Source: a virus
Virus record (IMG/VR): IMGVR_UViG_3300034685_000168
Coordinates: 43,639 to 107,638 of that record
Reading direction: 5' to 3' (one strand)
DNA: 64,000 nt
In this document: one piece after another, positions 23,933 to 47,238 of the stretch
Numbering within the stretch: position 1 is the stretch's first letter
Layout: each line of letters starts with the position of its first letter
Notes under the pieces: generated by a model
The model's input: only the letters and a program-made list of their open reading frames with translations
Told to the model about the DNA's origin: nothing
Databases searched by the model: none
Made by a program: the position numbers and the translations under genes

Positions 23933-25474
23933 TTATGAATCATAACCTAGTTTTTCATCTATTTTACTCCAATCTGGTTGGATTATACCACCTAATTCAT
24001 CAACTTCTATATAAGGATTTATAAGCCCAGATGTACCTGGGTTATCAGCAGGAAAACATATTAATGTTTCTACAACTGCATGAGAAGGGTGATACCGTAT
24101 TAATTCTGGACTTATTATATTAGACTTTTTTGCACTTGATTGTTTTTCTATATTTTCTAAAGATCTAAATGATTTTATACCAATACTATAGAACCAATTA
24201 TTATTATAAAACTGAGGGCCACTTGATAACATTCTATTGTTTTTAAGATTCATAAGAATGCTATCGGGAATTATAGTTCTCATTAATTCAGATTCTATAT
24301 CTTTATATGTTAAAGGTTTATTTTGTTTATTAACTAACTTATATAAATTATCAAATAAACTAGTTACAAAATATGTCATCAATTCTTGTATTGATGCAAT
24401 CCTTTTTAGATATAAATTAGATGGGTTAAAATGTGTAATAAACTCGTCTATTATGTATGTTACAAGATCAAATAGTTCTTGTATTGTTGTTATTTCATAA
24501 CCAATTCTCCTTAATTGTCGTGTTACTTTTGGATCAATAAATCTATCTAAATAGAATAAATGATCTGTTGTATTTTTTATTAATAATGAATCATTAAAAC
24601 CTTTAGTGAAAAAATGTTTTCCCAAACAAGTTTTAAAAAACACATTATTTTCAGTTTCTATTAAATTCTCTATTTCAAATCTTTTCTTTCCATTTTTAAT
24701 TGATTGAAATAAAGATAATAATGCTCTTCTTTTATAAAGATTATTTTTAAAAGTTTTTATTACTTTCACATAAACATTATTTTTTAATCTGAAGTAATAA
24801 AAATCATTATCATTATCAACTGGGTCAGTTACTAATTCTATTTCTCCAGGTTCATATTGATAAAAATAAAACGTATTATAAAATCCTTTATAAATTAATT
24901 GATAAAGGAATAAGGGTGGTGGAACAATATTTCTTTTACCATGAGCTCTACATGTAATTATTCTATCACTAACTGAATAATTACCAGTATGATCCTTAAT
25001 TGTTATTGTTTTAGATCTACCAAATATTATTGGGAATCTTAATACTTTAAGGATCATACTATTATTCACTATATTAAATACATCTTCTACAATACCAAAT
25101 ATCTGATATGTGTCTGTACCATTGATAACCATTTTTTGTTTATCTATCATATATGGTACATTAAGGTATACACTAATAATATCGGTTCCATTATATAAAA
25201 AATCAAATCTAACCATTTTAACTTCATGGTTAGCTACTTGGACTTTAAATTTAGGGTTCTTAAATTCTCTTTCTACTTGTTCTTCAGGTGTTAATTCGTA
25301 GTGTCCTTTATATTCAAGAAAACCACCTAGTGTTTTAATCACCTCTTCAAAAAAGAATTCTATCTCATTAATAATATCTTTCATAGAAAAATTACGATAA
25401 TCTAATAATAATTTATTATTAAATTTAGGAATATTATCGTTAACTTTTCTGAATATTGTATTCCACTTTGACAT
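23933..25474 (-). CDS. Non-virion RNA polymerase beta subunit, N-terminal part (phiKZ gp123-like)
   Basis: YLNVPYM, NLYLKRI, HPSHA..E..C.P..NPG.SG.INPY (beta region D-like); 513 aa. Confidence 0.75.
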   Translation of the reverse strand: MSKWNTIFRKVNDNIPKFNNKLLLDYRNFSMKDIINEIEFFFEEVIKTLGGFLEYKGHYELTPEEQVEREFKNPKFKVQVANHEVKMVRFDFLYNGTDIISVYLNVPYMIDKQKMVINGTDTYQIFGIVEDVFNIVNNSMILKVLRFPIIFGRSKTITIKDHTGNYSVSDRIITCRAHGKRNIVPPPLFLYQLIYKGFYNTFYFYQYEPGEIELVTDPVDNDNDFYYFRLKNNVYVKVIKTFKNNLYKRRALLSLFQSIKNGKKRFEIENLIETENNVFFKTCLGKHFFTKGFNDSLLIKNTTDHLFYLDRFIDPKVTRQLRRIGYEITTIQELFDLVTYIIDEFITHFNPSNLYLKRIASIQELMTYFVTSLFDNLYKLVNKQNKPLTYKDIESELMRTIIPDSILMNLKNNRMLSSGPQFYNNNWFYSIGIKSFRSLENIEKQSSAKKSNIISPELIRYHPSHAVVETLICFPADNPGTSGLINPYIEVDELGGIIQPDWSKIDEKLGYDS

Positions 25475-27050: not shown

Positions 27051-27072
27051 TAATAGTAATATATAAATAAAA
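27051..27072 (-). promoter_or_regulatory. phiKZ-type early promoter (TATATTAC)
   Basis: Minus strand TTTTATTTATATATTACTATTA, identical to 34813-34834, 47 nt upstream of the start. Confidence 0.7.
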
Positions 27073-27091
27073 TGTAATTGATTTTTATAAC

Positions 27092-34812: not shown

Positions 34813-34834
34813 TAATAGTAATATATAAATAAAA
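34813..34834 (-). promoter_or_regulatory. phiKZ-type early promoter (TATATTAC)
   Basis: 22-bp exact copy of 27051-27072, 45 nt upstream of the gyrB start. Confidence 0.7.
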
Positions 34835-34883
34835 AAATAGTGAACATATTTTAATATAGTATGTTTAATTAATAATAAAAAAT

Positions 34884-39768: not shown

Positions 39769-39964
39769 TTTTTTCTCCTTTTTATATCTAAGTTAAAAAG
39801 CCCTAAAAAAGTATAACGTATTAATAACTTTTATAGCTCTATTTTGGCTTAAAAAGACGTCCGTGTATAATGATACACGGTTTGTATTGAACCTGTTTTA
39901 TTTAACAAATTCCATTAATGGAATATATAACTAAAATTTTAATGAAAAAAAATAAGAGGAGTAT

Positions 39965-40031: not shown

Positions 40032-40334
40032 TTATTCCATAATAGATTTATTATATTCGTTAAATAAACCTAATAATTCATCCATCTTTTTAAAAAGTAG
40101 ATTCCGGAGTCTACTTTCTTTGATGAATTTGCAAACACTAACATAATGATGCATTACTATTCTCTTGTCAGACCAATCTATATTACTACCATCATTGATT
40201 AAATTAAATGATTCATTAACTACTTTTTTCAAATCAAATAATTCACATTTAATTTGGTTATGCAATATAAAATTAGTTTCTTCTTCCGCTTCCTTTTCAA
40301 TTTTATTTATTAAATCATTTATTTCTGTTTGCAT
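40032..40334 (-). CDS. Hypothetical protein
   Basis: Likely start ATG 40334 (MQTEIND) behind AAGGA. Confidence 0.65.
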   Translation of the reverse strand: MQTEINDLINKIEKEAEEETNFILHNQIKCELFDLKKVVNESFNLINDGSNIDWSDKRIVMHHYVSVCKFIKESRLRNLLFKKMDELLGLFNEYNKSIME

Positions 40335-40346
40335 TATCAATATTCC

Positions 40347-40382
40347 TTAAACTTTTTTTATTTGAAGTGACAAGATTATCAT
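40347..40382 (-). CDS. Candidate minigene MIILSLQIKKV
   Basis: GAGGAG 4-5 nt upstream of ATG; its stop overlaps the RBS of the next gene. Confidence 0.35.
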   Translation of the reverse strand: MIILSLQIKKV

Positions 40383-40401
40383 TTAACTCCTCTTAATTAA
40401 T

Positions 40402-40419
40402 TTAAATAAATACAAACAT
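40402..40419 (-). CDS. Candidate minigene MFVFI
   Basis: Extended SD AAAGGTAGGTGA 5 nt upstream of ATG. Confidence 0.35.
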   Translation of the reverse strand: MFVFI

Positions 40420-40450
40420 ATTAATCACCTACCTTTCTTTTGTAATATCA

Positions 40451-40472
40451 TAAAAGAAATATATAAATGATT
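40451..40472 (-). promoter_or_regulatory. Early-promoter variant
   Basis: Minus strand ATTTATATATTTCTTTTA; similar variants at 39916-39936 and ~39341-39359. Confidence 0.45.
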
Positions 40473-40499
40473 TTTAATTGAAATATTAATATATACAAC

Positions 40500-40690
40500 A
40501 CTCCGTATAAGAAAGCTATGCGGGGAAGCGGTCAGCTTCCACCCGCATAACCGCTTATACATCTGTGGCCCATTTTCTTGGTGTCCTCTCGGATCTTTAA
40601 TAGCATTACGCTTATTCTCTACATTAGTAGTTTATGTATACCAGGACGGGTACGTTATTACATCTAGTCTAACTTTAGTTGTAACCTTTA
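40500..40690 (-). ncRNA. Candidate structured non-coding RNA of unknown class
   Basis: GC-rich non-coding island; ~23-bp hairpin at 40505-40560 extended by G-U pairs on the minus strand; small hairpins including tcc-GAGA-gga; possible pseudoknot. Confidence 0.55.
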
Positions 40691-40705
40691 ACAAAATTTA
40701 AAATA

Positions 40706-41464
40706 TTATTTATTTTCAAAAATATTTGATAGCTCATCGAGTTTTACTTTTTTATCAGAACTTTGTTCTTTAAGTTGTTCAGTTTTTTCTTTAAGTTCTT
40801 TAATTTTATTTTCTGTCTTTTTAAGCTCTTCTTTTTTTTCAACAAGTAGTTGTTGATGAGATAATTCTTTCTGAGAAGCAGCAAGTTTTTTCTGTAGATC
40901 TAGAAGCTCAATCGTATATTCATTTTGATTTTTTTCGAACATAAGATCTGAAGCATCCAGAGCTGCTGCTTTTTTAGGAAAATGAACACGAATAAAATCT
41001 TCGACTTTCTGTTTAGTTTCTTCATCATCCCTAAGGTGATTTATATCCTGAAGAATGTCCAAATCATGTTTATTTTTCTTTGTTACTTTGTCGTAAATTA
41101 CAAACCAATCAAAAAATTCATTTATAACATAATCCCAAAATTTACCATTGAAGAATCTTCTGGAGTTGAAATTTTCAAGTCTAGAAGCTAGAATATCTCC
41201 AGGATTCATTTCAACTTCCCACACGTTATAAAAAATTTTACTAGTTCTATGTTGTTTCTTCTTTTTATCAAAGTATTTAATTTCTACAGGTTCTTTCGTA
41301 TGAGAAATTACAGTCACAACACCAGGGATATGGCTTCCATCGAATTTGAAGAAGTTCTCAAACTCTTGAGACCAGATAGTGTTAAATCTAGCTCGTCCAC
41401 CAGTAGAAGGTTTGTCAGTAATTTTAATTCTTCTTGGTTCTTCGTTCACAGTTTCATTTTGCAT
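40706..41464 (-). CDS. Orphan protein with a C-terminal coiled coil
   Basis: Likely start ATG 41464 (MQNETV) behind GAAGGA; the track's 41482 start is a TTG. Confidence 0.75.
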   Translation of the reverse strand: MQNETVNEEPRRIKITDKPSTGGRARFNTIWSQEFENFFKFDGSHIPGVVTVISHTKEPVEIKYFDKKKKQHRTSKIFYNVWEVEMNPGDILASRLENFNSRRFFNGKFWDYVINEFFDWFVIYDKVTKKNKHDLDILQDINHLRDDEETKQKVEDFIRVHFPKKAAALDASDLMFEKNQNEYTIELLDLQKKLAASQKELSHQQLLVEKKEELKKTENKIKELKEKTEQLKEQSSDKKVKLDELSNIFENK

Positions 41465-41640
41465 AAGTTTTATTTCCTTCAACGTGTTTAAAAGTTTTAT
41501 ATTTAGAAAATTATAAACTTCTGTTTTTTTTTACGATGAAAGTTATGTTTGATTGTTTTGTAGCAAGTGTGAATCGATGAAGTTGAATTATTTCTTATAT
41601 CATGATAACCTTTTTTGTTTTCGCTAAAACCAAGCATTTT

Positions 41641-41800
41641 TTAAAAGCTTCTTGATTTCTCTAAACTTTTTTCTTAACTTCTTGATTTACAATAAAATTC
41701 TTATTAACTTCTTGTTTTCTAAGGCTTTTCTATTCTTCTTCTTGATTTACAACACTTTTCTCTCTAATCTCTTGATTTACAACTAAAAATTCTCTAACCT
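41641..41800. repeat. Five degenerate 30-bp tandem units with core CTTCTTGATTTAC (iteron-like)
   Basis: cttgattt/cttgtttt recurs at 41651, 41681, 41711, 41741 and 41771, an exact 30-bp period. Confidence 0.85.
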
Positions 41801-41849
41801 AGACTTTTAGGGTTAAAAGAAAAAAGTAACATAAAAAAGAAAAGACTAA

Positions 41850-42160
41850 ATGTATATATAATACTTCGTATTATATATATCTAATTATATAAAGGTAATC
41901 AAAAATTTATTATATATAATAATATTAATAATATATATTATTTATATAATTATATAAATAACAAGTATATAATACTACGTATTATATATTATTAATTATA
42001 TAATATTTAAACAATACATATTATTATATTATAATATATATAATAAATTAAGATAAGGTATAAAAGAAAAAAAGAAAAGAAAAAAAGAAAAAAAGAAAAT
42101 TTTGAGAAAAAGAGATTTTTGTAAGATTGCTTTTTTTTCCTTTTTCGTTTTTTTTTAGAA
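41850..42160. other. Near-pure AT palindromic region with A-tract and T-tract (candidate origin unwinding element or divergent promoters)
   Basis: Inverted repeats at 41853-41879, 41938-41961 and 41966-41988; A-tract 42062-42099; T-tract 42131-42156. Confidence 0.5.
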
Positions 42161-42249
42161 AATTAAGATTAAATTTTTTAGATAACTGTAAATAAAATTT
42201 TAGATTAGATCATAAAAAAATACATACAGTTATCATGTTATAAAAAACT

Positions 42250-42585
42250 TTAAGAAGAAATTGAATTGAATTTTGAGTTGTTTATTTCTTCTGAATTTAG
42301 ACTTAGTGAGTAGTTATATTCGTTTCTTGCAAAAATAGTTTGAATTATTTTATATTTTCTTGTTAACAAGAGTTTATCTTCAACATAAACTTCATACGAA
42401 GTACTTTGATTTTTATTAATCTTGAAATTAACTAGAATTTTTTTATTAATATCATCAATGAATTTTATTTTACCTGTAATTTTGAAATTTTGTATTAATT
42501 CTATAACTCTATCAAGATCTTCATCGAAGAATTTTAGAATAGCTGAAGCTATGATATCTTGTTCTGATAAATTTATACAATTCAT
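42250..42585 (-). CDS. Hypothetical protein
   Basis: 111 aa; AGGAG RBS. Confidence 0.65.
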   Translation of the reverse strand: MNCINLSEQDIIASAILKFFDEDLDRVIELIQNFKITGKIKFIDDINKKILVNFKINKNQSTSYEVYVEDKLLLTRKYKIIQTIFARNEYNYSLSLNSEEINNSKFNSISS

Positions 42586-42696
42586 GATTTTATATTCTCC
42601 TAGTAAATAAATTATAATTTAATTTTGGGTTATAAAATTATAAGTTTATTATTTTATAAAAACTAAAAATAACTCAAACTTAGGAAATTAAACAAA

Positions 42697-44353: not shown

Positions 44354-44788
44354 ATGATATATAATTTAACAGCATATACCGATGGATCTTATTTTAGGAA
44401 CAATGGTGGTAATGCGTCTATAGTCCTTCATGGTTCTAATTTTTTATTAATATTAGAAAGAGAAACTAGTTCATACGTTACTAATAATCGTATGGAATTA
44501 AAAGCAGTAATAAATATATTAAAACATCTTAATAGTCAATGTAATATAACTATTTATTGTGATAGTAAATATGTTGTGGATAGTATAGACCAAGGATGGG
44601 TTAATAATTGGGTTAATAATAATTGGCGTAATAGTGGTGGAGATGTAAAGAATAGAGATTTATGGGAAGAATACTTAATGTATTCTCAATATCATAATGT
44701 TAAAATGATATGGGTTAGAGGACATGATGGGAATATAGATAATGAGTTTGTAGATGAGATGGCTAATTATGCAAGAAAATATTTATAA
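44354..44788 (+). CDS. rnhA: Ribonuclease HI
   Basis: YTDGS, TNNRMELKAVI, CDSKYV, VKNRDLW, WVRGHDG..NE.VD. Confidence 0.97.
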   Translation: MIYNLTAYTDGSYFRNNGGNASIVLHGSNFLLILERETSSYVTNNRMELKAVINILKHLNSQCNITIYCDSKYVVDSIDQGWVNNWVNNNWRNSGGDVKNRDLWEEYLMYSQYHNVKMIWVRGHDGNIDNEFVDEMANYARKYL

Positions 44789-44792
44789 AAAG

Positions 44793-44955
44793 ACAGTTAT
44801 TATATAAGACTCTTCTTTTCTGTCATAACTGTTATTATAGGAAATGTATTATAAGTAAAATATTTATGATATGTTTCCTATATAAAAAACCAATCGATCC
44901 TTTCTTTTCTTCTGGTTAATGTATAATACTCTACCATTATGGTAGAGTATTATAC
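44793..44955 (+). ncRNA. Candidate structured RNA or 3' UTR with CU-rich loops
   Basis: 22-bp stem at 44836-44882 with plus-strand G-U pairs; aacca/tggtt closes a CU-rich loop; layout parallels 44047-44274. Confidence 0.4.
44921..44955. terminator. Bidirectional hairpin terminator
   Basis: gtataatactctacca-tta-tggtagagtattatac. Confidence 0.8.
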
Positions 44956-44958
44956 TAA

Positions 44959-47133
44959 CTAGTTAATATATTGATCCATTAATAGAGTTACTTTTTTCTT
45001 ATTTTTATTTTTATCCATAGTTGCTTCTATTTTCAATGATTCTAGAATCATATAGATAGTTGACATATTCTCATAAATAATTTGCCTTCTATCCACTAAT
45101 GGTTTAATAATATCTGGAATAATATCATATTGTAAACTTAATGCTAACTTAGAAGGGAATATTTTATATTTAGCTTTTCTGGTTTTAGGTTGTTTATTAG
45201 GATGAACTTGATTCCATAGATCATCTATATACTTTTCTAATTTCTTAAAGAATTTATTATGATTTTCTGCTAACCAATTAAGATATCCTTCGTCTATATC
45301 ATTAAGTGGTATAACTTTAGTTTTAGTTGGTATATTGAGTTCTCCAAATTTATCAGCGAATAATGAATTCCATAAATCTGAATATAACCAATTAGAACTT
45401 AAATGATTTTTATAATCTTCTTCATTCTTAATAGAAACTGATTTAATGTAATCTGTTGTACCTTCATCTATAGATTTATTAATATCTAATTCTCTTTCTA
45501 AAGCTATATTAATAAATTCTCTAGCACTAATTGTTCCTTCTGCAACATCAGTCATTATTTTCTTTAAGAAATAATCTATAAAATCAGATGTTTTATCTGG
45601 AAACACAGATGATCTTAATTGTATCCCTTTAATATCATATTTATTTTTTAATAATACCATTCCTTCTACCATTGTTATTAATGAAGCATAATGTTTTTTA
45701 ACATTAAATCCTATATATAGAGGCATAAGAAACTCATTCTTCATTACCATCCTATGAGATTCTTTTTCACTACTCCCATGTGCGATACTATATTTATAAA
45801 GAGTTTTAAACATAGTTTTAGCAACTAAGAAAATAACTAATGAAGATATTTCATATAAACCTTGTGTAATTTTAACTTCTTCTCCAGTATAAAGTGTAAC
45901 CCAATTATGACATGAATAAATACAACTATCAGTATCGGAACCAGGAACTGTATTACGTCTCATTAAATGTTTAGTATTTATATTATCTATTTGTGTTTTA
46001 GTATCTATTAGAATATTGTAAATAGACATTAGTTCATTGAGTTTATTTTCTACATGGTTATAAATGTGAATTATTTCTTTATATAATTCTGTATTAACAG
46101 TTGAAAGTTCTATAATAGAATAAACTCTATCTTTATTAGTTTTAGGATCTTTTAAAATTAATTTATCACCTATATTGATACTAACTAATATTAATATATC
46201 TTCATCGAATGAGTTATGAAATTCAGTAAAATTGTGTGGTATAGATGAAGTATCTATATTTTTAAAGTCAAATAGATCTTTTAAAAAAGGTAAAAAGAAG
46301 TGTGTATTTTTCCAGAATAAATAATAAAGATTATTAACATAATAAATATATATAAGTTCTTCTTTACTCATATTATTTATTATAGATGTTGATTTAGTTA
46401 GTTTATCGAAAAAAGAATAATTACGAACTTGTTTAGTAAAGTGTTCTATTACATCTTCTTTAGTTGGTAATTTAAAATTGTATTTATTAATTATTTCTAA
46501 TACTTCATTATGTTTATCAAATTGTTTTAAATGAGTTATAATGTAATTTACAACATCATTATCACAAGTTAAATGAAAATTACCACCTATAGTATTTTCT
46601 ATACAAGTAGTTGCATTTTTAATAAGTGATCTTGCTAAAGAAGTAATAGCATTATAATTACCTTTATCATATTGTGCATTATAAGGACTATTATATGATC
46701 CAGGTAATGTATTAACTCGTATTTTTTTATTACCTTGTGCAAAGTTTTTTAAATTAGCTAAATCTTCTTTGCCTTGTGCTCTAAGTTTAAATCCTTCTTT
46801 TTTAATTTGACTTCTTTCTTTTAATCTAACTATAATGTAATCTGATAGTAATGATTTTTCTTCTTCTTCTGGAATATATACACTACCACTAGGAGTAATA
46901 ATATTTTTTTTATTAGCATTTATCCAATTCATTAGAGATTGATTTTTAACTACTACTTCACCTTTTTCAGTAATAATATTACCTATAGTTAAATCTTTAA
47001 AATTGTCTTGTATATATCCTTTTAGTATTTCTCTTACTTGTTCTTCTTTTCCAATATATTTACCAGTACGAAGTAGAGCATCATATTGATTCTCAAAATA
47101 ACATACTAATAAATCTAAACGTTCTCTGCTCAT
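44959..47133 (-). CDS. Divergent family-B DNA polymerase (phiKZ gp50-like)
   Basis: KIRVNTLPGS (motif B), SDTDS (motif C), MKNEF, KKHY, IKGIQLRSS. Likely start ATG 47133 (track: 47187). Confidence 0.85.
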   Translation of the reverse strand: MSRERLDLLVCYFENQYDALLRTGKYIGKEEQVREILKGYIQDNFKDLTIGNIITEKGEVVVKNQSLMNWINANKKNIITPSGSVYIPEEEEKSLLSDYIIVRLKERSQIKKEGFKLRAQGKEDLANLKNFAQGNKKIRVNTLPGSYNSPYNAQYDKGNYNAITSLARSLIKNATTCIENTIGGNFHLTCDNDVVNYIITHLKQFDKHNEVLEIINKYNFKLPTKEDVIEHFTKQVRNYSFFDKLTKSTSIINNMSKEELIYIYYVNNLYYLFWKNTHFFLPFLKDLFDFKNIDTSSIPHNFTEFHNSFDEDILILVSINIGDKLILKDPKTNKDRVYSIIELSTVNTELYKEIIHIYNHVENKLNELMSIYNILIDTKTQIDNINTKHLMRRNTVPGSDTDSCIYSCHNWVTLYTGEEVKITQGLYEISSLVIFLVAKTMFKTLYKYSIAHGSSEKESHRMVMKNEFLMPLYIGFNVKKHYASLITMVEGMVLLKNKYDIKGIQLRSSVFPDKTSDFIDYFLKKIMTDVAEGTISAREFINIALERELDINKSIDEGTTDYIKSVSIKNEEDYKNHLSSNWLYSDLWNSLFADKFGELNIPTKTKVIPLNDIDEGYLNWLAENHNKFFKKLEKYIDDLWNQVHPNKQPKTRKAKYKIFPSKLALSLQYDIIPDIIKPLVDRRQIIYENMSTIYMILESLKIEATMDKNKNKKKVTLLMDQYIN

Positions 47134-47238
47134 TTTATAAACCCTTTCATTATTGTTCTTTCTTTTTTTATGGTTATTAATAATCATATATAATTAAAAG
47201 AACATATAAAAAATTAACATTAAGGAGATAAAAAGAAA

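What the first reader, a model, noticed from the sequence alone, without database searches (positions are those of the whole stretch)
40500..42160. Possible three-part module: repeat array + orphan protein + structured RNA at the strand-switch point
Seen: in minus-strand order, AT palindromes, five 30-bp units, an orphan 252-aa protein (aromatic/basic N-domain, coiled-coil C-terminus) and a structured RNA. The block sits where gene orientation flips, about 2 kb from RNase H and close to the DNA polymerase. Inference: either a replication-initiation cassette (iteron-binding initiator with an RNA primer or regulator processed by RNase H), a centromere-like segregation cassette, or an RNA-protein system using the repeats as short RNAs. 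This is the best candidate for an undescribed system here, but linkage is the only evidence.
Basis: inference. Interest (0 to 1): 0.7.

Follow-up and report, generated by a model that had tools for sequence, protein, structure and literature searches.

The report
Origin-like repeat region in jumbo phage
The longest gene-free stretch of an uncultivated, very AT-rich phiKZ-like giant phage has five evenly spaced repeats next to the genome's most easily melted DNA, which looks like a replication origin, but the neighbouring protein gene and the supposed structured RNA do not form one linked system with it.

Summary
The sequence features are real. The three-part module is not supported.

**Setting.** The window is the last 64 kb of a 107.6-kb, about 23% GC, phiKZ-like jumbo-phage contig.

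**Gene-free gap, 41483-42249.**
- It is the longest gene-free gap of the contig.
- It holds five units at an exact 30-bp pitch, with a 15-nt core found nowhere else in the genome.
- It holds the contig's most AT-rich DNA (4.7% GC), with twin hairpins.
- It holds a purine/pyrimidine inverted repeat.
- GC skew corrected for gene orientation flips sign here, with origin-like polarity.
- The one relative recovered has its own unique AT-rich tandem-repeat island in the same interval, between the DNA polymerase/RNase H genes and the RNA polymerase beta-like gene.
- Best reading: a candidate replication origin, about 0.4.

**The 252-aa protein.** It is not an orphan. About 22 unannotated clusters are related to it. 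In other phages these sit in tight early or DNA-metabolism operons, without repeats or a downstream RNA. The relative with the AT island lacks the protein.

**The "structured RNA".** Only a 56-nt hairpin is significantly structured. It sits where terminator hairpins precede other copies of a recurrent early-type promoter. The other 130 nt fold no better than shuffled sequence.

This scan has noted similar AT-rich repeat gaps in other phiKZ-like phages. Function is untested.

The parts
40458..40486 (-). Copy of the recurrent early-type promoter (TTTCAAT box, 9-10 nt, TTTATATATT), firing away from the hairpin towards ORF 40032-40340
   Evidence: TTATATATT has 17 of its 43 occurrences in the 8% of the contig that is intergenic (p 2e-8). 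The copies upstream of genes are co-oriented with them and lie 38-162 nt from the start codon. This stretch is the only part of 40341-40705 that has paralogues in the genome.
40505..40560 (-). 56-nt GC-rich hairpin, read as a terminator-like 3' end of the P0001 transcription unit
   Evidence: MFE -31.2 kcal/mol, z -4.9, 0 of 200 shuffles fold as well. It occupies the same position as the hairpins (for example GGGGAC-TTCG-GTCCCC) that directly precede other copies of the promoter. The strict terminator scan found none here.
40567..40690 (-). GC-enriched (37%) non-coding spacer, likely the 3' UTR of P0001; no significant structure
   Evidence: z -0.6 on the minus strand and -0.7 on the plus strand. 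GC by segment. No Rfam, Pfam, phage-record or own-genome match.
40706..41464 (-). P0001, 252 aa: beta-rich N-domain (about residues 11-96), helical middle, coiled coil 180-236; member of a small unannotated phage protein family
   Evidence: GC3 is 20.8% against a genome mean of 12.6%.
41648..41797 (.). Five iteron-like units at an exact 30-bp pitch, with a conserved 15-nt core and a variable 15 nt
41809..41850 (+). Purine-rich block containing AAAGTAACATAAA (41823-41835). This 13-mer is also unique in, and present in, the AT island of the relative G001.
   Evidence: Shuffle p is about 0.04, so chance is not excluded.
41853..42050 (.). AT island (7% GC) made of two 111-bp units, each with a TATATAATAC-N3-GTATTATATA hairpin; candidate DNA-unwinding element
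   Evidence: 41901-42050 has 4.7% GC, the lowest 150-bp window of the 107-kb contig; the next lowest is 10%. Repeat families D3-D5. Hairpin folds.
42061..42157 (.). Inverted repeat of a purine (A/G) arm and a pyrimidine (T/C) arm
   Evidence: Arms of 41 nt, 73% complementary. The fold is not better than shuffles, z -1.3.
42250..42585 (-). 111-aa ORF of unknown function with a good Shine-Dalgarno sequence. It separates the repeat region from the true strand switch at 42586-42696.
44354..44788 (+). Single-domain RNase HI (144 aa); context gene
   Evidence: PF00075, E 1e-34
44959..47187 (-). Divergent family-B DNA polymerase of phiKZ-like phages; context gene
   Evidence: PF20286, E 6e-93. tblastn hits in 295 phiKZ-like phage records.

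Best explanation
The block is three separate things lying next to each other, not one system.

**(1) The 767-bp gene-free region 41483-42249.** It is a single-copy DNA element with the layout of an iteron-type replication origin. Five phased binding-site-like repeats lie beside an extremely AT-rich, hairpin-bearing tract where the duplex would open. A purine/pyrimidine inverted repeat follows. The proposed mechanism is inferred and not shown. A sequence-specific protein would occupy the 15-nt cores. Melting would start in the adjacent AT island. Priming could be helped by a purine-rich transcript that RNase H would process, because phiKZ-like phages have no recognisable primase (PMC13648698).

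**(2) P0001.** It is the first gene leftward of that region. It belongs to a small phage family of unknown function that elsewhere stands without repeats. It may have been acquired, given its high GC3.

**(3) The GC-rich element.** It is the 3' end of the P0001 transcription unit. Its 56-nt hairpin most likely acts as a terminator or insulator in front of the next early-type promoter.

**My odds for each step:**
- The parts are not a conserved module: about 0.75.
- The hairpin is a terminator: about 0.65.
- The gap is an origin: about 0.4.
For: **The gap itself**
- It is the longest intergenic region of the contig.
- Its core is unique and the pitch is exactly 30 bp.
- It holds the AT-richest 150 bp of the contig, 4.7% GC against 10% for the next lowest.

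**Strand asymmetry**
- After gene orientation is regressed out, GC skew still flips sign, with the best split at 40.4-42.4 kb.
- The split removes 19% of the residual variance. 0 of 500 permutations reach this for all positions and 2 of 500 for third codon positions.
- The plus strand is G-richer to the right of the split, which is the polarity expected at an origin.
- Genes diverge from this point (Fisher p 9e-5).

**The relative G001** (DNA polymerase 30% identical, genome 48% GC)
- Its lowest-GC window (17%, next lowest 29%) holds a 22-bp tandem repeat.
- That window lies in the same interval, between the DNA polymerase/RNase H genes and the RNA polymerase beta-like gene.
- Its AT repeats are also unique in that genome.

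**Independence of the parts**
- P0001 homologues lack arrays.
- G001 lacks P0001.

**The hairpin**
- It is the only significantly structured part of the GC-rich element.
- It sits at the terminator position before a promoter copy.
Against: - There is no experimental or read-depth evidence for initiation here.
- The contig is only about 45% complete, so another skew switch or AT island may exist elsewhere in the genome.
- Neighbouring genes are not independent, so the permutation test overstates significance.
- G001 shows no skew switch at its island.
- In SPN3US the AT island lies 11 kb on the other side of the polymerase. AgentSmith has nothing comparable near its polymerase.
- No recognisable initiator was found beside the repeats.
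- The hairpin is not followed by a clean U-run, and the strict terminator scan found nothing.
- A pitch of 30 bp is not a whole number of helical turns.
Confidence: 0.4

Rival explanations
1. Transcription-control patchwork with no role in replication. The gap would hold terminators for the 111-aa gene, the non-early promoter and long leader of P0001, and a repeated operator or enhancer array for a phage regulator. The AT tract would be fast-evolving filler or a store of promoter-like sequence.
For: - AT-stemmed hairpins are the usual terminator form in this phage.
- The palindrome arms resemble the early -10-like element TTTATATATT (site 41982).
- P0001 lacks an early-type promoter, so some other control must act upstream of it.
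- Earlier notes of this scan on Goslar-like phages read similar gaps as terminator, AT repeat tract and early promoter. Those notes are unchecked.
Against: - The 15-nt core and the AT repeats are single-locus. They are not dispersed like the promoter motif.
- Sigma-70-like sites occur no more often than in shuffles.
- This reading does not explain the orientation-corrected skew switch.
- It does not explain why this is the AT minimum of two unrelated-composition genomes.
Confidence: 0.3
2. P0001 would be the iteron-binding initiator or centromere-binding protein for the five units, and the downstream structured RNA would be a primer or regulator acting with it.
For: - The gene lies 184 bp from the array, as rep genes do in iteron replicons.
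- A coiled-coil tail would allow dimers.
- RNase H and the DNA polymerase lie within 3-5 kb.
- Two family members give weak hits to KfrA_N, a plasmid DNA-binding and coiled-coil protein, at E 0.004. This is below threshold and probably comes from coiled-coil composition.
Against: - Family members elsewhere sit in tight operons, beside RecT/Gam-like genes or beside ribonucleotide reductase, thymidylate kinase and SbcC, with no arrays.
- G001 keeps an AT/repeat island but has no homologue of the protein.
- Most of the RNA part has no significant structure, and its hairpin sits at a terminator position.
- No complementarity beyond chance links the RNA to the repeats.
Confidence: 0.12
3. Recently acquired island with neutral repeat expansion. 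P0001, its GC-rich tail and ORF 40032-40340 would have come from a GC-richer phage. The 30-bp units and 111-bp units would have arisen by slippage or duplication in an unconstrained gap.
For: - P0001 has GC3 of 20.8% and ORF 40032-40340 has 20.4%, against a genome mean of 12.6%. Only 4 of 92 genes exceed P0001.
- All relatives of P0001 come from GC-richer contigs.
- The 130-nt tail is GC-rich but unstructured.
Against: - Within each unit, a conserved 15-nt core alternates with a diverged 15 nt. That is the pattern of selection on a site, not of recent duplication.
- An analogous island exists in G001 at the same interval.
Confidence: 0.1
4. DNA site for segregation, anchoring or packaging: a centromere-like or pac-like array bound by a phage protein.
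For: - Phased direct repeats are typical of parC, tubC and pac sites.
- A 30-bp repeat pitch is also that of the EBV oriP family of repeats (from my own knowledge).
Against: - No ParA, ParM or TubZ-type NTPase and no terminase gene was found among the neighbours scanned.
- The large terminase is 38 kb away.
- phiKZ-like phages package by headful, and no centromere is known for them (from my own knowledge).
Confidence: 0.08

Closest known systems
Iteron-type origins of phages and plasmids (lambda ori with O protein; P1 oriR with RepA; R6K and RK2 oriV)
   Same: Several direct repeats with a conserved core at a fixed pitch, an AT-rich unwinding tract immediately beside them, inverted repeats, and a gene directly adjacent.
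   Different: The pitch is 30 bp rather than about 20-23 bp. The adjacent protein shows no Rep, O or winged-helix similarity. No host-factor boxes can be named because the host is unknown. Function is untested.
Transcription-primed phage origins (T4 oriF/oriG; T7 primary origin) and T4 oriE with its iterons
   Same: Promoter-like AT-rich elements beside an unwinding region, with an RNase H gene close by. phiKZ-like phages lack a recognisable primase, and R-loop priming has been proposed for them (PMC13648698).
   Different: No canonical copy of this phage's early promoter lies in the gap. The purine-rich transcript is hypothetical.
AT islands and repeat tracts in the largest gene-free gaps of other phiKZ-like jumbo phages
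   Same: A single extreme AT minimum with repeats, in a long gene-free gap within about 3-12 kb of the DNA polymerase.
   Different: There are no alternating-GC clamps here, and no conserved 250-280-nt RNA block could be shown. The position relative to the polymerase differs from SPN3US.
Intrinsic terminator / early-promoter junctions of this same phage
   Same: A GC-rich hairpin directly upstream of the T-run/CAAT box and TTTATATATT element.
   Different: The hairpin is much longer (56 nt against about 16-40 nt). It is separated from the box by a non-U stretch and preceded by 130 nt of GC-enriched sequence.

Membership tests
Iteron-type replication origin | Three or more direct repeats with a conserved core at a regular pitch | tested here: met
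   Five units with spacing 30, 30, 30, 30. 47 of 60 core positions match, 0 of 300 shuffles reach this.
Iteron-type replication origin | AT-rich DNA-unwinding element adjacent to the repeats | tested here: met
   41901-42050 has 4.7% GC, the minimum of the 107-kb contig, and starts 55 bp from the array.
Iteron-type replication origin | Cognate initiator protein of a recognised fold encoded nearby | tested here: inconclusive
   P0001 and eight neighbours have no Pfam or PHROG initiator match. The P0001 model gives only coiled-coil matches and the N-domain was barely tested.
Iteron-type replication origin | Replication starts there (strand-asymmetry switch, marker frequency) | tested here: inconclusive
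   The orientation-corrected GC skew switches here with origin polarity. However, the contig is partial, the relative shows no switch, and read data were not obtainable.
Known RNA families (Rfam 15) and tRNA/tmRNA | Match at the family gathering score | tested here: not met
   0 matches at gathering score. The best weak match in 40300-42300 has E 0.32. ARAGORN finds nothing.
Structured non-coding RNA (generic) | Folding energy beyond shuffles over the whole element, and covariation in relatives | tested here: inconclusive
   Only the hairpin 40505-40560 is significant (z -4.9). The rest gives z -0.6. No homologues were found, so covariation could not be tested.
Intrinsic terminator | GC-rich hairpin followed by a U-run | tested here: inconclusive
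   The hairpin is strong and positioned like other terminators before the promoter. The strict scan finds no hairpin plus T-run here.
CRISPR array | Repeats of 23-47 nt with unique spacers of similar size | tested here: not met
   The conserved core is only 15 nt in a 30-nt unit. The CRISPR-DR17 match has E 1.8 and 19.9 bits against a 42-bit gathering score.
Plasmid/phage partition cassette (parC/ParR/ParM, tubC/TubR/TubZ) | Partition NTPase and adaptor genes beside the repeat site | tested here: not met
   None of the ten genes scanned between 37362 and 47187 matches such families.
phiKZ-like jumbo phages | Divergent family-B DNA polymerase and multisubunit RNA polymerase genes shared with the group | tested here: met
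   PF20286 at E 6e-93. A PHROG 'RNA polymerase beta subunit' match at E 5e-69. tblastn hits in about 290 phiKZ-like phage records. Chimallin was not tested.

The most novel reading that the evidence does not exclude
This would be the replication origin of a phiKZ-like jumbo phage, a group in which no origin has been mapped and no primase is recognisable. In this reading, a protein bound to the five 30-bp units opens the adjacent AT island. Promoter-like hairpin arms launch a short purine-rich transcript across 42061-42115. That RNA:DNA hybrid, trimmed by the nearby RNase H, primes the DNA polymerase. P0001 would define a new family of iteron-binding initiators.
Probability: 0.12. Interest if true: 0.8.

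Novelty: new member of a known kind. Interest (0 to 1): 0.4.

Why it matters
How phiKZ-like, nucleus-forming jumbo phages start DNA replication is an open question. They lack a recognisable primase and sliding clamp, their GC skew is reported to be atypical, and no origin has been mapped (PMC13648698, PMC12625630).

A single-copy locus that combines phased repeats, the genome's AT minimum and an orientation-corrected skew switch gives a concrete site to test. So does an analogue at the same syntenic position in a distant relative.

The work also defines three further things:
- a small, completely unannotated phage protein family;
- the early-type promoter motif of this phage;
- the terminator/promoter junctions of this phage.

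The negative result matters too. Adjacency was the only link between the three parts, and it does not hold up in relatives.

Tried and rejected
**Searches that found nothing**
- Rfam at gathering score on the whole contig and at E up to 10 on the locus, and ARAGORN. The only hits are three tRNAs, 42 kb away outside the window.
- megablast and blastn of the locus and tblastn of P0001, P0005 and P0021 against 50,697 phage records: no match.
- An exact-pattern scan of IMG/VR for the hairpin: none.
- IMG/VR scans for P0001 relatives, with the single sequence and with the profile: none.

**The P0001 fold**
- A single-sequence AF2 model of P0001 was poor (pLDDT 56).
- The alignment-based model was searched with Foldseek against PDB and BFVD and with VIA-align. 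Only generic coiled-coil rows appeared (Z about 6). The N-domain reached only Z 2 to beta-2-microglobulin-type sandwiches.
- The ESM Atlas gave nothing usable.
- A PDB profile search found only coiled coils.

**Other negative tests**
- The 441-aa neighbour has no relatives and no PDB match.
- Sigma-70 and terminator consensus scans give no more sites than shuffles.
- I tested whether the GC-rich tail is a remnant of a gene that follows P0001 homologues elsewhere. tblastx and blastn were negative.
- A 66-codon open frame on the plus strand has no start codon and no Pfam match.

**Leads not promoted to evidence**
- Raw cumulative GC skew was rejected as evidence because it follows gene orientation. 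It was replaced by the orientation-corrected test.
- The shared 13-mer with G001 is only marginal (p about 0.04).

Full report
**What the window is.** The window is the last 64 kb of a 107,638-bp IMG/VR virus record that CheckV rates about 45% complete. It is about 23% GC.
- The DNA polymerase at 44959-47187 is the divergent family-B type (PF20286). Its relatives by tblastn are about 295 phiKZ-like jumbo-phage records at 23-25% identity.
- A multisubunit RNA polymerase beta-like gene, topoisomerase II, tail sheath, terminase and conserved phiKZ-type virion proteins are present.
- I conclude that this is an uncultivated phiKZ-like jumbo phage of a very AT-rich host. I did not test for chimallin.

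**Checking the observation.** Every listed feature exists.
- TRF and the repeat finder give five units at an exact 30-bp pitch at 41648-41797. A 15-nt core (CTTCTTGATTTACAA on the plus strand) is conserved and the other 15 nt vary. 47 of 60 core positions match, against a maximum of 39 in 300 shuffles.
- The core occurs nowhere else in the 107-kb contig at one mismatch or fewer.
- The AT palindromes are two hairpins, 41853-41879 and 41966-41988, inside two 111-bp units.
- ORF 40706-41464 (minus strand) encodes the 252-aa protein P0001.

Three points need correction.
- The true strand switch is at 42586-42696. A 111-aa minus-strand gene lies between it and the repeat region.
- The protein is not an orphan.
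- Most of the "structured RNA" is not demonstrably structured.

**The gene-free region.** With a simple gene call, 41483-42249 (767 bp) is the longest intergenic region of the whole contig.
- Its 150-bp window 41901-42050 has 4.7% GC, the lowest of the contig. The next lowest is 10%.
- In minus-strand order the region holds a purine/pyrimidine inverted repeat (42061-42157), the AT island with the twin hairpins, a purine-rich block, the five units, and then 183 bp of P0001 leader.

**GC skew.** Raw cumulative GC skew has its minimum here, but skew in this phage follows gene orientation. I therefore regressed gene-wise skew on orientation.
- A residual positional term remains, and its best split lies at 40.4-42.4 kb. 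It removes 19% of the residual variance.
- 0 of 500 permutations reach this for all positions, and 2 of 500 for third codon positions.
- The plus strand is G-richer to the right, which is origin polarity.
- Genes also diverge from this point (58 of 74 point leftward on the left, 13 of 18 rightward on the right; p 9e-5).
- Caveats: the contig is partial, and neighbouring genes are not independent.

**Relatives of the phage.**
- Only one related contig could be recovered: G001 (100 kb, 48% GC, polymerase 30% identical).
  - The order DNA polymerase, RNase H on the opposite strand, gap, RNA polymerase beta-like gene is shared with the window.
  - The lowest-GC window of G001 (17%, next lowest 29%) lies exactly in that gap and carries a 22-bp tandem repeat.
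  - The AT repeats are unique to that locus, so they are not copies of a dispersed promoter.
  - A 13-mer, AAAGTAACATAAA, is unique in each genome and lies beside the AT tract in both. Shuffles give such a match in 4% of trials, so it is only a lead.
  - G001 shows no skew switch at its island.
- In SPN3US the same synteny exists but that gap is not AT-rich. Its AT island, clamped by alternating-GC palindromes, lies 11 kb on the other side of the polymerase.
- AgentSmith has nothing comparable near its polymerase.
- Earlier notes of this scan describe similar "longest gap = AT-rich repeat tract" loci in other phiKZ-like phages. Those notes are unchecked leads.

**The protein.**
- An exhaustive phmmer search and then a profile search found about 22 clusters of 177-212 aa, at 22-29% identity over nearly the full length. 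None carries a Pfam domain or a name.
- None occurs in 50,697 deposited phage genomes or in IMG/VR.
- With the family alignment, AF2 gives a confident model (pLDDT 80) with six beta strands (residues 11-96), four helices and a 57-residue coiled coil.
- Structure searches return only generic coiled-coil matches.
- Six loci with homologues were obtained.
  - In a proteobacterial MAG and in a JGI contig, the gene overlaps its neighbours in an operon just upstream of RecT-like and Mu Gam-like genes.
  - In a 36.9-kb contig it lies near ribonucleotide reductase, thymidylate kinase and SbcC.
  - None has a tandem or iteron-like repeat or room for a downstream RNA.
- G001, which has the AT island, has no homologue at E up to 1.
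- P0001 has an unusually high GC3 for this genome: 20.8% against a mean of 12.6%, and only 4 of 92 genes are higher. This fits acquisition from a GC-richer phage or high expression.

**The "structured RNA".** The patch 40500-40690 is GC-rich for this genome: 51% in the hairpin and 37% in the rest. It has no Rfam, phage-record or own-genome relative.
- Folded in parts, only the hairpin 40505-40560 beats shuffles (-31.2 kcal/mol, z -4.9). The remaining 131 nt give z -0.6 on the minus strand and -0.7 on the plus strand.
- Immediately beyond the hairpin lies a copy of a motif that I found by k-mer enrichment: a T-run/CAAT box, 9-10 nt, TTTATATATT, often followed by ATGATATA.
  - It stands 38-162 nt upstream of, and co-oriented with, at least a dozen genes.
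  - 17 of the 43 occurrences of its core are in the 8% of the contig that is intergenic (p 2e-8).
  - It fits the description of early, virion-RNA-polymerase promoters of jumbo phages: an AT-rich motif of about 10 nt near position -10 (PMC7598289).
- Other copies are directly preceded by hairpins such as GGGGAC-TTCG-GTCCCC.
- The 56-nt hairpin therefore sits at a terminator position. The simplest reading is that it is the 3' end of the P0001 transcription unit. The strict terminator scan does not call it, so this is an inference.

**Verdict.** The three parts are neighbours, not a demonstrated system.
- The repeat/AT region on its own is a credible, testable candidate for a replication origin, at about 0.4. 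The group it belongs to has no known origin and lacks a recognisable primase, and R-loop priming has been proposed for it (PMC13648698). Its GC skew has been called atypical (PMC12625630).
- The main rival, at about 0.3, is a transcription-control patchwork without a replication role.
- The remaining odds go to neutral repeats in a recently acquired island and to a segregation or packaging site.
- Nothing here is experimentally shown.

Noticed in passing
whole contig; in the window for example 40458-40486(-), 39922-39950(-), 34820-34848(-), 27058-27086(-): A recurrent promoter-like motif: T-run/CAAT box, 9-10 nt, TTTATATATT, often followed 6 nt later by ATGATATA. At least 12 copies lie 38-162 nt upstream of co-oriented genes. 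It is probably the early (virion RNA polymerase) promoter of this phage.
   Followed up: partly
outside the window, contig positions about 5300, 36500 and 36950 (window -38319, -7118, -6676): Terminator/promoter cassettes. A GGGGAC-TTCG-GTCCCC hairpin is followed by a T-run that merges into the upstream box of the promoter.
   Followed up: partly
window 44922-44955: A near-perfect 34-bp palindrome between the convergent RNase H and DNA polymerase genes. It is likely a bidirectional terminator.
   Followed up: no
window 44354-44788 and 23933-25474: RNase H here is a 144-aa single-domain protein, not the multi-domain RNase H-clamp (Rhc) described for chimalliviruses (PMC13648698). A 513-aa protein matches a PHROG annotated 'polymerase'. 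It might be an RNA polymerase piece or a second DNA polymerase piece.
   Followed up: no
window 40706-41464 and 40032-40340: Both genes have GC3 of about 20-21% against a genome mean of 12.6%, which is a possible sign of recent acquisition.
   Followed up: partly
L002, L005, L006: In three of the longer contigs that carry P0001 homologues, the gene lies only 0.5-0.7 kb from a contig end. This could be a genome end or an assembly break.
   Followed up: no
window 41823-41835 and L008 16824-16836: The 13-mer AAAGTAACATAAA is unique in each phage contig and lies beside the AT island in both. Shuffle p is about 0.04.
   Followed up: partly
window 40501-40698 (+): A 66-codon frame without stops runs antisense through the GC-rich patch. 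It has no start codon and no Pfam match. It could be chance in GC-richer sequence or a gene remnant.
   Followed up: partly
L008 16950-16995 and six other places in G001: A GC-rich hairpin (GTTCACTCATCCCC ... GGGGATGAGTGAAC) beside G001's AT island shares its arm sequence with about seven dispersed sites. It may be a repeated terminator-like element.
   Followed up: no
contig 1295-1734 (outside the window): A cluster of three tRNA genes (Asn-GTT, Gln-TTG, Leu-TAA) lies in the second-longest gene-free gap.
   Followed up: no
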